DNA of 64,000 nucleotides from IMG/VR virus record IMGVR_UViG_3300025084_003379, positions 1-64,000 of that record. One strand, given 5' to 3'. The notes under the pieces were generated by a model. The model worked only from the letters and a program-made list of their open reading frames with translations, was not told the origin of the DNA and ran no database searches. Positions 313 through 57,803 of this stretch are shown piece after piece (position 1 is the stretch's first letter; every line of letters begins with the position of its first letter). The position numbers and the translations under genes are program-made. The DNA comes from a virus. Its lineage: Duplodnaviria > Caudoviricetes.

Positions 313-341
313 TGAAACTATTTTTAAATTAAGTATATAAT
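313..341 (+). promoter_or_regulatory. Class A promoter (TGAAAC-N17-TATAAT) upstream of the ncRNA candidate
   Basis: TGAAAC 313-318, 17-nt spacer, TATAAT 336-341; the same architecture recurs at several other gene starts. Confidence 0.7.
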
Positions 342-347
342 AATAAA

Positions 348-812
348 TCCAAACGGATTAATAAGTTCTTTAAAATTATGGGAAGGCACAGAACGGAAAG
401 CTTTAGGTAGCTCCTAAATGATTATTCCAATTATGTGTAGATGCGTTGCTGAAAAATTCCTGAGCAAAAGGGAATAAGGCACTTGGCTAGGACGATGGTT
501 CACTGATATCTTAAATGAGAAATTCAGAACTGGCTAATCACCAGAGCTAAAGGTTTAACGCATTAAAAATCTAAGAGATTTTGCAAAGACTTCCAGGTAA
601 GCAAACCGCTGAATCCTGGTTAATGACTGAACAACGCAAAGAGTATGTGGCGTAAGGTACACTTAAAGATTATGATGATCAATTACGATGATTGAACCTC
701 GGCCGGTTTAATTAAGTAATAGGATGGCAGTCCAAAGAGTGGTAGTCTAATATAAAGCAGCTTTCGTTAATAAAGGTATTCTCAAATCCTTTCGCATCGT
801 CTTCCTTTTTTT
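348..812 (+). ncRNA. Large structured non-coding RNA candidate (large ornate phage RNA class; family unassigned)
   Basis: About 510-nt gap with no ORF in the track, its own promoter and a terminal T7 tract. End-to-end pairing GGAAGGC 381-387 with GTCTTCC 799-805 and GATGCG 440-445 with CGCATC 793-798, plus many internal stems. Confidence 0.65.
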
Positions 813-1863: not shown

Positions 1864-1892
1864 TGAAACAAATTTATTATATGCTATATAAT
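1864..1892 (+). promoter_or_regulatory. Class A promoter upstream of the OMP gene
   Basis: TGAAAC 1864-1869, N17, TATAAT 1887-1892. Confidence 0.7.
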
Positions 1893-3921: not shown

Positions 3922-3994
3922 TGTGCCTTGGTGTAACTGGCAACACGTCTGGTTTTGGTCCAGAAGAGTGGAGGTTCGAGCCCTTCAGGCACAA
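3922..3994 (+). tRNA. trnQ: tRNA-Gln (UUG)
   Basis: Cloverleaf: acceptor TGTGCCT/AGGCACA, D-arm GTGT/ACAC, anticodon arm TCTGG-TT-TTG-GT-CCAGA, T-arm GGAGG-TTCGAGC-CCTTC. CCA is not encoded. Confidence 0.95.
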
Positions 3995-4010
3995 CATTGT
4001 TAAGCTACTA

Positions 4011-4022: not shown

Positions 4023-4223
4023 ATGATTATAATTAAAAACAGTGGTAAAGACTCTATTGATAAAATGCTTAAGAAGTATAAACAGAAACAAAAGAGAACT
4101 AAGCAAATTAGAAGTATTAGAGAAAGGAAGGAATATACGAAACCTTCCGTTAAGAAAAGAGAGCAAAAACTTAAAGCAATCTACATTCAAAAACTCAGAG
4201 ACCAAGAGCAAAAAAGGTCTTAA
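4023..4223 (+). CDS. rpsU: Ribosomal protein bS21, Bacteroidia type
   Basis: MIIIKNSGKDSIDKMLKKYKQK...IRERKEYTKPSVKKREQKLKAIYIQ; S21 KPS motif; start at ATG 4023, after the tRNA. Confidence 0.92.
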   Translation: MIIIKNSGKDSIDKMLKKYKQKQKRTKQIRSIRERKEYTKPSVKKREQKLKAIYIQKLRDQEQKRS

Positions 4224-9456: not shown

Positions 9457-10779
9457 ATGACTGAATACACAAACCTTACTTATCTACAATCCTTCTTGGA
9501 TGAAATGCGATCTTCCTCTTCAGGTAATCATAAAATTGCAACTCTTAAAAAGTATGCTGATAACTCTGATGAAAATTCTGATAGAGAATTCTTACAGAAA
9601 GTTTTCTTCTATACCTACAATCCTTATTTTAAGTATAATGTAACTCCTAAGAATTGTAAAAAGAATTCAGATTTACTAGGTCACCCAAATACATACGGTA
9701 GTATCTTTACCTTATTGGATGATTTAAGAAATAGGGTATGCACTGGTCATACTGCAATTGCAAATGTAAATAGATTCGTCCTAGAGAATAAACAATGGGA
9801 AGATATTATTTACTATATGCTAAACCGAGACCTTAATATGGGATGTGGTACTACCTCTATCAATAAGGCAGTCCACCCAGATTTAATTCCAACATTTAAA
9901 GTCGCTTTAGCAAATGCATATAATCCTAAGAGAGTAGATTTTCAAAGTGGAGAATGGTACGGATCCAGAAAATTGGATGGTGTAAGATGTATCTGTAGAA
10001 AAGAAATGAATACTGTAACATTCTTTTCAAGGAACGGTAAAGAATTTACTACCTTAGGTAATTTAGAAAATGAAATTTCTAAAATAGGTGGAGACTTTAT
10101 TTTAGATGGAGAAATCTGTATGGTAGATAAAGATGGTAATGAAGACTTCCAAGGAATTATGAAACAAATTAGAAAGAAGGATCATCAAATTGAAAATCCT
10201 AAATTCTTTGTATTTGATTTTTTAACCTTAGATGAATTTGATGATAAGGTTGGAACTACTCCTCTTACTGAAAGACTTAAGAATGGTTATGATATTTTAC
10301 CGGAAGAAATTAAATCTTCTATGTTAGAATTCTTACCACAAGAACAATTAACTACCGAAGAACAATTTACTGAAATGGCAAAAGAAGCCGAAGAGGCTGG
10401 GTTTGAAGGAATCATGGTTAGAAAGAATATTGGCTATGAAGGTAAAAGAAGTCATAATCTTTTAAAAGTTAAAAAATTCCATGATGCTGAATATACAATT
10501 TTAGAATGTATAAACGGTACAATGCGATGGACAGAAAATGGAAAACAAGTTGAGAAAGAAGGTTTAAGTAATATTATAATTGAACATAAAGGTAATAAAG
10601 TAAGTGTTGGATCTGGATTCTCTAAAGAACAAAGAGAACATTACCTTAATAATCATAATGAACTAATTGGTAAAACTGTAACTGTTCAATATTTTGAAGA
10701 AAGTCAAAATCAGAATGGTGGATATTCATTAAGATTCCCGGTAGTAAAACATATATATGAAAATGGAAGAAATTGTTAA
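9457..10779 (+). CDS. lig: ATP-dependent DNA ligase
   Basis: SRKLDGVR (motif I), LDGE, FFVFD, EGIMVR, LLKVK and OB-fold end SLRFP. Confidence 0.95.
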   Translation: MTEYTNLTYLQSFLDEMRSSSSGNHKIATLKKYADNSDENSDREFLQKVFFYTYNPYFKYNVTPKNCKKNSDLLGHPNTYGSIFTLLDDLRNRVCTGHTAIANVNRFVLENKQWEDIIYYMLNRDLNMGCGTTSINKAVHPDLIPTFKVALANAYNPKRVDFQSGEWYGSRKLDGVRCICRKEMNTVTFFSRNGKEFTTLGNLENEISKIGGDFILDGEICMVDKDGNEDFQGIMKQIRKKDHQIENPKFFVFDFLTLDEFDDKVGTTPLTERLKNGYDILPEEIKSSMLEFLPQEQLTTEEQFTEMAKEAEEAGFEGIMVRKNIGYEGKRSHNLLKVKKFHDAEYTILECINGTMRWTENGKQVEKEGLSNIIIEHKGNKVSVGSGFSKEQREHYLNNHNELIGKTVTVQYFEESQNQNGGYSLRFPVVKHIYENGRNC

Positions 10780-56729: not shown

Positions 56730-57803
56730 ATGGCAACAGAAGTATTAATATCTTCTGATATGAAAGCTCGGATCATCGATAAGGTGGTCCGAGTTCTTCA
56801 TACTAACCATTCTCACCCTGAGAAAAGAAGAATATTAGAAAGTAAGGAAAGATTAAATTTTGCATGTCCTTATTGTGGAGACTCCACAGATTCGGTAAGA
56901 AAGAAGAGAGGTAATCTTTATTGGAATAATTTACAATATCATTGCTATAATTGTTCAGCACACGAAAGTTTAGACGTCTTCCTAAAAGACCACAATGAAA
57001 ACTTCGAAGGTGAAGAAAGAATCAATGTAATTAATTTCATTAAAGAAAACCGTAAAAACTTTTCACTAGGTGAAACTTTAGAGTTTCATTTATTTGAAAT
57101 GGCAAATAATTTATCATTAACATTTGATGAGATTGCATTAGGTTTTAATGTCTATCCAATAAACTCATTAACATATAGAGCATATCCTTATTTAAAAAGT
57201 AGATTACTTCATCATAAAACCGAAAAGTTCGGTTATGATCCAAGACGAAAGGAACTGTATGTATTTAACCTTACACCTAAAGGAAAGATTGTTGGTTTTC
57301 AAGTAAGAGCGTTGGATGACAATAGTGGTCCTAAATATAAAACGTGGAATATTGAAAGAATATATGATAGGCTTAAAAAACCTTTAAAAGTTTCAGAAGA
57401 AGAATTAGATTCTCTTAATAAAATATCAATGATATTCGGTATACTTACTACAGATTTAAGTAGGCAGTTTACTGTATTTGAAGGTCCTATAGATTCATTC
57501 TTTATGTCTAATACAATTGGTCTTACTGGTGTTAAAAAACAAATACTAGATTTTGATGAAATTCCAACTGTTAGATATTTCTTTGATAATGATATTGAAG
57601 GAAAGACTAAAATGATACAAAAACTAAAAAGAGGTAATACTGTTTTTATGTGGGATAAGTTTTTAAAGGATTTTAGAATACCTTCTAAAAAGGTAAAAGA
57701 TTTAAATGATCTAGTTAAATATGAATATAAACATAGGACTGGGTGTTTAAACGAGTTGGATAAATATTTTACAAACAACCATTTAGATCTCATATTCATA
57801 TGA
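56730..57803 (+). CDS. gp61: DNA primase-like protein (gp61 type: Zn finger plus TOPRIM)
   Basis: CPYCGDS...HCYNC, VFEGPIDS, FFDND, KDLND. Confidence 0.82.
   Translation: MATEVLISSDMKARIIDKVVRVLHTNHSHPEKRRILESKERLNFACPYCGDSTDSVRKKRGNLYWNNLQYHCYNCSAHESLDVFLKDHNENFEGEERINVINFIKENRKNFSLGETLEFHLFEMANNLSLTFDEIALGFNVYPINSLTYRAYPYLKSRLLHHKTEKFGYDPRRKELYVFNLTPKGKIVGFQVRALDDNSGPKYKTWNIERIYDRLKKPLKVSEEELDSLNKISMIFGILTTDLSRQFTVFEGPIDSFFMSNTIGLTGVKKQILDFDEIPTVRYFFDNDIEGKTKMIQKLKRGNTVFMWDKFLKDFRIPSKKVKDLNDLVKYEYKHRTGCLNELDKYFTNNHLDLIFI

What the first reader, a model, noticed from the sequence alone, without database searches (positions are those of the whole stretch)
348..812. Stand-alone ~430-460 nt multi-branched ncRNA with its own promoter
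Seen: this is the largest ORF-free gap in a gene-dense window. It starts just after TGAAAC-N17-TATAAT (313-341) and ends in a T7 tract (806-812). Its ends pair: GGAAGGC 381-387 with GTCTTCC 799-805, and GATGCG 440-445 with CGCATC 793-798 (an alternative partner AACGCAT lies at 557-563). Internal stems include TTTAGG-TAGCT-CCTAAA, TTATTCC/GGAATAA (422-428/471-477), TTGCT/AGCAA, CTGG/CCAG, AAAATCT-AAG-AGATTTT (566-582), CCAGG/CCTGG (593-619), ACTTAA/TTAAGT (661-717) and AAAGG-TATTCTCAAAT-CCTTT (772-792). Known: large phages carry large ornate RNAs (GOLLD, ROOL) of unknown function, often near tRNA genes. Inference: this is such an RNA, possibly a compact GOLLD-like 3' domain or a new family. I cannot assign the family by eye.
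Basis: partly seen in the sequence, partly recalled or inferred. Interest (0 to 1): 0.82.

Follow-up and report, generated by a model that had tools for sequence, protein, structure and literature searches.

The report
Double manA-like phage RNA gene
The flagged gap in this marine giant-phage fragment is a real, strongly conserved folded RNA gene of about 465 bases, built from two diverged copies of the "manA" RNA module (reported in 2026 to build RNA-only cages) and not a GOLLD or ROOL RNA; its role in infection is unknown.

Summary
Window 342-812 (+) is a genuine structured RNA. It has no ORF. In relatives it is 88-98% identical in DNA, while the neighbouring genes are only 68-87% identical. 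Conservation stops at the T7 tract. In 40 distinct homologues from marine viral and metagenome contigs, 42 of 128 predicted pairs show compensatory double changes (5-11 in register-shifted controls) and 98% of cells stay paired. Rfam has no family above threshold. The only family that matches is manA (RF01745), and it matches both halves: 428-624 and 624-792, more clearly in a divergent relative (27 and 29 bits). The RNA is a 5' hairpin domain plus two manA-like modules. A bridging helix joins the modules and two shared end-to-end helices enclose them, the outer one running straight into the U tract. Neighbouring genes vary; in other lineages the RNA lies next to tRNA-Gln/bS21 or a mini-tmRNA-like gene. 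I therefore read it as a stand-alone RNA gene, not a leader switch. A 2026 preprint reports that manA RNAs self-assemble into cages, so a covalent double module may be a pre-formed building block; this is inference. GOLLD/ROOL membership is rejected. Earlier notes of this scan describe double manA-like RNAs on other, non-similar DNA. Expression could not be tested.

The parts
313..341 (+). Promoter-like site, TGAAAC-N17-TATAAT; transcription start predicted near 347-349
   Evidence: It is conserved in close relatives. The same motif recurs at 1864-1892 (2 matches against 0.21 expected). Group B relatives carry a similar site before their copy. No transcript data.
346..359 (+). Small 5'-terminal hairpin
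   Evidence: Pair 349-356 switches from C-G to U-A in 11 of 40 sequences. Group B has a different, larger hairpin at the same place (read by eye).
380..387 (+). 5' strand of the outer closing helix (partner 799-806)
   Evidence: Helix 3: 99% paired, 4 of 6 pairs with double changes. The divergent relative L059 keeps it with different letters.
386..438 (+). 5' hairpin domain with a conserved apical loop at 408-412; shortened in group B, different in L059
   Evidence: Helices 4-6.
440..445 (+). 5' strand of the inner closing helix (partner 793-798); it encloses both modules
   Evidence: Helix 7: 100% paired, 3 of 6 pairs with double changes.
446..621 (+). Module 1, manA-like. Signature hairpin 448-480, four-way junction 482-552, hairpin 560-584, bridge strand 587-591, terminal hairpin 593-619
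   Evidence: RF01745 match at 428-624: 26.1 bits, E 1.1e-4. The same module scores 29.6 bits in L049 and 27 bits in L059. Helices 8-19 covary.
622..792 (+). Module 2, manA-like. Signature hairpin 626-658, four-way junction 660-741, bridge strand 744-748, unpaired stretch 749-771 with an invariant 10-mer at 753-762, terminal hairpin 772-792
   Evidence: RF01745 match at 624-792: 16.1 bits, E 0.032. The same module scores 29 bits, E 9e-6, in L059. Helices 20-25 covary. 624-662 is nearly invariant in all 40 sequences.
587..591 (+). 5' strand of the bridging helix between the modules (partner 744-748)
   Evidence: Helix 17: 100% paired. L059 changes pair 591-744 from U-A to A-U, which breaks the alternative local pairing 551-555/588-592.
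699..704 (+). Invariant hexaloop containing a self-complementary GGCC, on a stem that covaries
   Evidence: That it is a contact site is inference only.
793..806 (+). 3' strands of the inner (793-798) and outer (799-806) closing helices
806..812 (+). U7 tract directly after the outer closing helix; probable 3' end. Conservation stops here
   Evidence: L059 also has a U-rich tract here; group B does not.

Best explanation
Window ~348-812 (+) is a stand-alone non-coding RNA gene of an uncultured marine jumbo-phage lineage. It has its own promoter-like site and an end formed by a long-range closing helix followed by U7. The RNA folds into a 5' hairpin domain and two diverged manA-like modules. 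Each module has the signature hairpin with its conserved internal loop, a four-way junction and the conserved terminal hairpin. A bridging helix ties the modules together, made from the strand that would close the fourth stem of module 1 and the strand that would open it in module 2. Two shared closing helices clamp the whole.

Shown here: the RNA is real, its structure covaries, both halves resemble manA, and the flanking genes vary.

Inferred: it acts as a folded RNA particle and not as a leader. Because manA RNAs are reported to self-assemble through loop-loop contacts, this covalent pair of modules is probably a pre-formed two-core building block. Its invariant loops would mediate contacts within the RNA, between copies, or with a partner. 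The biological role is unknown.
For: Conservation:
- No ORF.
- The RNA is 88-98% identical in DNA where the downstream gene is 68-85% and the upstream gene 80-87% identical.
- Conservation ends at the U tract.

Structure:
- 40 distinct homologues were collected.
- 42 of 128 pairs show double changes, against 5-11 in slid controls and 10.4 +/- 1.9 in shuffles. 98.3% of cells are paired, against 31-47%.
- The structure derived from 9 close sequences is essentially the same as the one derived from all 40.
- G-U/G-C alternation fits the + strand only.

Likeness to manA:
- manA is the only Rfam family matched by both halves, in order and on the right strand.

Independence from neighbours:
- The upstream gene differs or is absent in about 12 loci.
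- A sulfotransferase gene lies between the RNA and the usual downstream gene in 4 loci.
- Group B places the RNA after a hexapeptide-repeat gene and before another structured element plus tRNA-Gln/bS21.
- L059 places it before a mini-tmRNA-like gene.

Self-assembly of manA: bioRxiv 10.64898/2026.07.01.735769.
Against:
- manA scores of 16-30 bits lie far below the gathering score of 55.2.
- A model built from module 2 does not detect module 1, so the two halves are related only through the manA model.
- Most of the alignment is 81-100% identical, with a single lineage near 73%, so many compensatory cells are inherited and not independent events.
- In the main clade the same gene family nearly always follows the RNA, 14-20 nt after the U tract. 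That also fits a leader.
- Self-assembly of this RNA is untested, and the cage report is an in vitro preprint.
Confidence: 0.6

Rival explanations
1. The RNA is a cis-acting leader, a tandem-aptamer riboswitch or another sensor, for the downstream 155-aa gene. When the fold is stabilised, the outer closing helix forms next to U7 and terminates transcription; otherwise RNA polymerase reads into the gene at 827.
For: - manA was originally proposed as a riboswitch candidate in 5' UTRs (PMC2864571).
- The closing helix directly abuts U7.
- The 155-aa gene family follows the RNA in most loci.
- The closing strands have conserved alternative partners: 381-385 with 590-594, and 795-800 with 492-497 or 685-690. 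These could act as anti-terminators.
- Tandem aptamers are known from glycine riboswitches (own knowledge).
Against: - Group B has no U tract after the closing helix and is followed by RNA genes.
- L059 is followed by a tmRNA-like gene.
- A sulfotransferase gene is inserted in 4 loci.
- Conservation ends before the start-codon region.
- The downstream gene has no recognised family and none of the functions linked to manA.
- No ligand is known for manA.
Confidence: 0.2
2. The RNA is a new structured RNA family unrelated to manA, and the sub-threshold manA matches are convergent or chance resemblance.
For: All manA scores are below half the gathering score. Module 2 lacks the fourth stem of manA. 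The module-2 model does not find module 1.
Against: - Five separate matches fall on two modules in three lineages, with E of 1e-4 to 9e-6 in searches over all 4227 families; no other family recurs.
- The matches fall on manA's most conserved letters and keep the order of elements.
- A clear single manA from a viral contig also scores under threshold, at 51.6 bits, so the Rfam model is narrow.
Confidence: 0.12
3. The RNA is a member or a compact domain of GOLLD or ROOL.
For: Only the general resemblance: a large, ornate RNA in a large phage with a tRNA gene in the region.
Against: Neither family, nor any other large-RNA family, matches at E up to 10 or at gathering score.
Confidence: 0.01

Closest known systems
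manA RNA motif (Rfam RF01745; Weinberg et al. 2010, PMC2864571; cryo-EM assemblies in bioRxiv 10.64898/2026.07.01.735769)
   Same: It occurs in marine phages. Each half has the signature hairpin with the conserved internal loop, then a four-way junction, then the conserved terminal hairpin. A helix brings the ends together.
   Different: - There are two modules in one chain of about 465 nt, against about 190 nt for manA.
- One pair of closing helices encloses both modules.
- The fourth stem is re-wired into an inter-module bridge, and module 2 has an unpaired conserved stretch instead.
- There is an extra 5' hairpin domain.
- Scores are 16-30 bits against a gathering score of 55.2.
- It has its own promoter and U-tract end and variable neighbours, and is not in a typical 5' UTR of metabolic or chaperone genes.
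Double-module manA-like phage RNAs noted earlier in this scan on other genomes (unchecked AI notes e1-5833224, e1-5366135, e1-5366153)
   Same: They describe two manA-like cores in one RNA of about 390-425 nt in uncultured marine large phages, behaving as a gene of its own. One note describes swapped helix strands between the halves.
   Different: No sequence likeness to this window was found in the scan's index. Those RNAs lie beside tRNA-Ala or an SSB operon. I did not align them with this family, so whether they share an origin is open.
GOLLD and ROOL large ornate RNAs
   Same: They are large, multi-branched, phage-associated RNAs of unknown function. They are reported to multimerise (own knowledge of 2024-25 cryo-EM work, not checked here).
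   Different: There is no model match. This RNA is shorter and has a different architecture.
Tandem glycine riboswitch
   Same: Two homologous domains lie in one transcript (own knowledge).
   Different: It has a known ligand and an expression platform, and it lies in 5' UTRs. Here no ligand is known, the context varies, and both modules sit inside shared closing helices.

Membership tests
manA (RF01745) | Score at or above the Rfam gathering score (55.2 bits) | tested here: not met
   26.1 bits (428-624) and 16.1 bits (624-792) in the window. The best score in relatives is 29.6 bits. A plain single manA on a viral contig reaches 51.6 bits.
manA (RF01745) | Hairpin flanked by the conserved internal loop (5' side CUGAA-AA, 3' side UAAGG) | tested here: met
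   Present at 448-480 and at 624-660. The flanking pairs covary (U-G/C-G at 450-478) and the inner stems covary.
manA (RF01745) | Four-stem junction right after that hairpin | tested here: met
   482-552 (helices 10-14) and 660-741 (helices 21-24), both with compensatory changes.
manA (RF01745) | Stem with an internal loop (fourth stem) between the junction and the last hairpin | tested here: inconclusive
   Module 1 has only the inner hairpin (560-584). Its outer strand 587-591 pairs with 744-748 of module 2. Module 2 has an unpaired stretch instead.
manA (RF01745) | Terminal hairpin with conserved GGUA...AAUCC | tested here: met
   593-619 and 772-792.
manA (RF01745) | Closing helix joining the 5' and 3' sides of one module | tested here: not met
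   A closing helix exists (440-445/793-798) but it encloses both modules together. Neither module has one of its own.
manA (RF01745) | Location in the 5' UTR of mannose/fructose, nucleotide, ibpA or photosynthesis genes | tested here: not met
   The downstream gene has no family. Context varies among relatives.
manA (RF01745) | Self-assembly into closed oligomers (preprint) | not testable with these tools
   Needs purified RNA with SEC, mass photometry or cryo-EM.
GOLLD (Rfam) / ROOL (Rfam) | Match to the family covariance model | tested here: not met
   No match at E up to 10 over 250-900, nor at gathering score over the whole window.
tmRNA / RNase P / group I intron | Match to the family models, or to ARAGORN for tmRNA | tested here: not met

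The most novel reading that the evidence does not exclude
The RNA is a natural covalent dimer of manA cores, locked by a strand-swapped bridging helix, that assembles in infected cells into an RNA-only shell or other closed particle through its invariant loops. That would make manA-type assembly a real part of jumbo-phage biology, for example to sequester or scaffold something, and not an in vitro curiosity or a riboswitch.
Probability: 0.22. Interest if true: 0.9.

Novelty: new variant of a known kind. Interest (0 to 1): 0.62.

Why it matters
manA has been an orphan "riboswitch candidate" since 2010. In 2026 it was reported to form RNA-only cages in vitro, with no known biological role. This family fuses two manA-like cores into one clamped transcript. 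It has its own promoter and end, it moves between gene neighbourhoods, and it is more conserved than the surrounding proteins. It occurs in about 50 marine contigs, but in none of the cultured phage records or 185,579 prokaryote species genomes that were searched. This argues that the manA fold can work as a free-standing RNA. It also provides a defined construct (about 348-812) for testing whether module-module contacts and assembly matter in nature.

Tried and rejected
- Rfam at gathering score over the whole window gave only tRNA-Gln.
- ARAGORN found no tmRNA.
- blastn against 50,697 phage records found no match.
- The genome search with RF01745 on the phage's own record found nothing through its filters.
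- Minimum free energy against shuffles was not significant on either strand.
- More distant relatives of the upstream protein (L023, L031-L043) have no gap and no RNA at the syntenic site. A module-2 covariance model (R1) found nothing in ten of their contigs; all are fragments, so this carries little weight.
- R1 did not detect module 1.
- The tandem pattern in viral contigs also returned three chance hits in coding DNA (L064-L066) and one single manA (L063).
- The same kind of pattern had no hit in prokaryote genomes.
- A scan for extra, non-nested helices with covariation gave no convincing pseudoknot. It did give conserved alternative pairings (464-469 with 579-584; 381-385 with 590-594), which I leave unexplained.
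- A pairing of 555-559 with 767-771, considered by eye, is not kept in other lineages.
- The downstream 155-aa protein has no PHROG or Pfam family. Its AlphaFold model is poor (pLDDT 58.8) and Foldseek against the PDB gave nothing below E 0.3.
- The extended -10 motif is not enriched in the window.

Full report
**Setting.** The window is the first 64 kb of a 75-kb IMG/VR viral contig that CheckV rates about 25% complete, so it is a fragment of a jumbo phage. It has about 31% G+C and nearly all genes lie on the + strand. The flagged stretch lies between the truncated end of a 162-aa gene (stop at 312) and a 155-aa gene (827-1294). Neither has a known family.

**The observation.**
- The gap 313-826 holds no ORF above 35 aa.
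- The promoter-like TGAAAC-N17-TATAAT (313-341), the T7 tract (806-812) and both end pairings are present.
- Folding energy is not better than shuffles: z = -1.25 on the + strand and +1.11 on the - strand. I relied on comparative evidence instead.

**Conservation.**
- The flanking proteins led to 42 loci in viral contigs.
- Where the gap exists, it is 88-98% identical in DNA. The downstream coding sequence is 68-85% identical and the upstream one 80-87%.
- Conservation covers the promoter and stops abruptly after the T tract.
- Pattern scans added more viral contigs and 47 metagenome contigs from JGI, ENA and TARA. This gave 40 distinct full-length sequences, 81-100% identical to the window, plus one lineage (L059/L106) at about 73%.
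- There was no hit in 50,697 phage records or in 185,579 prokaryote species genomes.

**Structure.**
- RNAalifold on nine close sequences gave 125 pairs with almost no broken cells.
- RNAalifold on all 40 sequences gave essentially the same structure.
- On those 40, 42 of 128 pairs carry compensatory double changes. Shuffles give 10.4 +/- 1.9 (0 of 500 reach the observed value) and register-shifted controls give 5-11. 98.3% of cells are paired, against 31-47%.
- Many pairs alternate between G-C and G-U or between A-U and G-U, which only makes sense on the + strand.
- Caveat: most sequences are close relatives, so cells are not independent events. The structure was also derived from these data.
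- Helices in window coordinates are listed.

**Identity.**
- At gathering score, Rfam finds only tRNA-Gln (3922-3994) in the window.
- With permissive thresholds, the only notable match in 250-900 is manA (RF01745) at 428-624: 26.1 bits, E 1.1e-4, over the full model length.
- In the divergent relative L059 the same scan gives two adjacent manA matches, of 27 and 29 bits, E 4e-5 and 9e-6.
- The window's second half also matches, at 624-792, with 16.1 bits and E 0.032. In L049 module 1 scores 29.6 bits.
- The matches rest on manA's most conserved letters: the internal loop around the first hairpin and the terminal hairpin. They also keep manA's order of elements: hairpin, four-way junction, terminal hairpin.
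- A plain single manA after an hsp20-like gene on another viral contig scores only 51.6 bits, so the Rfam model is narrow.
- A model built from module 2 alone does not find module 1. The halves are alike only at the level of the manA consensus.

**Architecture.** In order along the RNA:
- a small 5' hairpin (346-359);
- the outer closing helix (380-385 with 801-806);
- a 5' hairpin domain (386-438);
- the inner closing helix (440-445 with 793-798);
- module 1 (446-621);
- module 2 (622-792);
- U7.

A helix between 587-591 and 744-748 links the modules. It uses the strand that in manA would close the fourth stem of module 1 and the strand that would open that stem in module 2. L059 keeps it through a U-A to A-U change that breaks the alternative local pairing. 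Several loops are invariant on covarying stems: 699-704 (contains a self-complementary GGCC), 726-729 and 639-645. The unpaired 10-mer at 753-762 is also invariant.

**Context and mode of action.**
- In most loci the order is 162-aa gene, RNA, 155-aa gene, hexapeptide-repeat gene, and further on tRNA-Gln and bS21.
- The upstream gene differs or is missing in about a dozen loci.
- A sulfotransferase gene separates the RNA from the 155-aa gene in four loci.
- In group B (L049, L077, L079, L104) the RNA follows the hexapeptide-repeat gene behind its own TATAAT site and lacks the U tract. It runs into a further element of about 95 nt that ends in a U tract, followed by tRNA-Gln and/or bS21.
- In L059 it is followed by a 117-nt tmRNA-like gene.
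- A cassette that keeps its promoter and its end while its neighbours change is best read as a gene of its own. I put this at about 0.6-0.65.
- The leader or riboswitch reading stays alive at about 0.2. The closing helix abuts U7, the 155-aa gene usually follows within 20 nt, and the closing strands have conserved alternative partners.

**Link to known biology.**
- manA was described in 2010 as a marine and cyanophage riboswitch candidate (PMC2864571).
- A July 2026 preprint reports that manA RNAs assemble in vitro into octamers, decamers and a 60-subunit shell through kissing loops and a loop-receptor contact. It mentions no tandem or fused forms, and a literature search found none.
- A covalent pair of manA-like cores, clamped at its ends and carrying invariant loops, could be a pre-formed two-core unit of such an assembly. 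This is inference and nothing here tests it.
- Earlier unchecked notes of this scan report double manA-like RNAs in other marine phages. None resembles this sequence. I reached the double-module reading before seeing them.

**Verdict.** The GOLLD/ROOL interpretation is rejected. The object is a new double-module variant of the manA kind, most likely a stand-alone phage RNA gene, with unknown function. Expression data could not be obtained.

Noticed in passing
L059:4806-4922 (+): Directly after the divergent copy of the RNA lies a 117-nt match to tmRNA (RF00023, 54.9 bits, gathering score 47). Only 43 nt stand in place of the roughly 300-nt middle part, so it is essentially a tRNA-like domain without an obvious tag region.
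   Followed up: no
L049:~9960-10055 (-); also L079 and L104: In group B relatives the RNA runs into an extra conserved element of about 95 nt. It has two hairpins, and a long-range helix closes it and abuts a U tract. It has no Rfam match and is absent from the window.
   Followed up: partly
window 1864-1892 (+): A second exact instance of TGAAAC-N17-TATAAT lies upstream of the beta-barrel-like gene at 2052. This may be a shared promoter class (2 matches against 0.21 expected).
   Followed up: partly
window 3922-3995 and 4023-4223 (+): tRNA-Gln (UUG) is followed by a 66-aa ribosomal protein bS21 homologue (Pfam PF01165, 31.4 bits). The same pair follows the RNA directly in group B relatives.
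   Followed up: partly
window 464-469 with 579-584; 381-385 with 590-594: The loop of module 1's first hairpin is complementary to the 3' strand of hairpin 560-584. L059 keeps this complementarity through two double changes. In addition, an internal segment mimics the 3' closing strand. These may be alternative folds, folding intermediates or contacts between copies.
   Followed up: partly
window 57665-57707 (-): A near-copy of the terminal hairpin of module 2 lies inside a coding region on the opposite strand (module-2 model, 17.7 bits, E 0.002). It is probably chance.
   Followed up: no
L063:9989-10188 (+): A single, ordinary manA-type RNA (51.6 bits, just under the gathering score) lies right after an hsp20/ibpA-like gene on another marine viral contig.
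   Followed up: partly
L073:3154-3822 (+); also L095, L096, L100: A sulfotransferase gene (PF17784) is inserted between the RNA and the 155-aa gene in a subset of relatives.
   Followed up: partly
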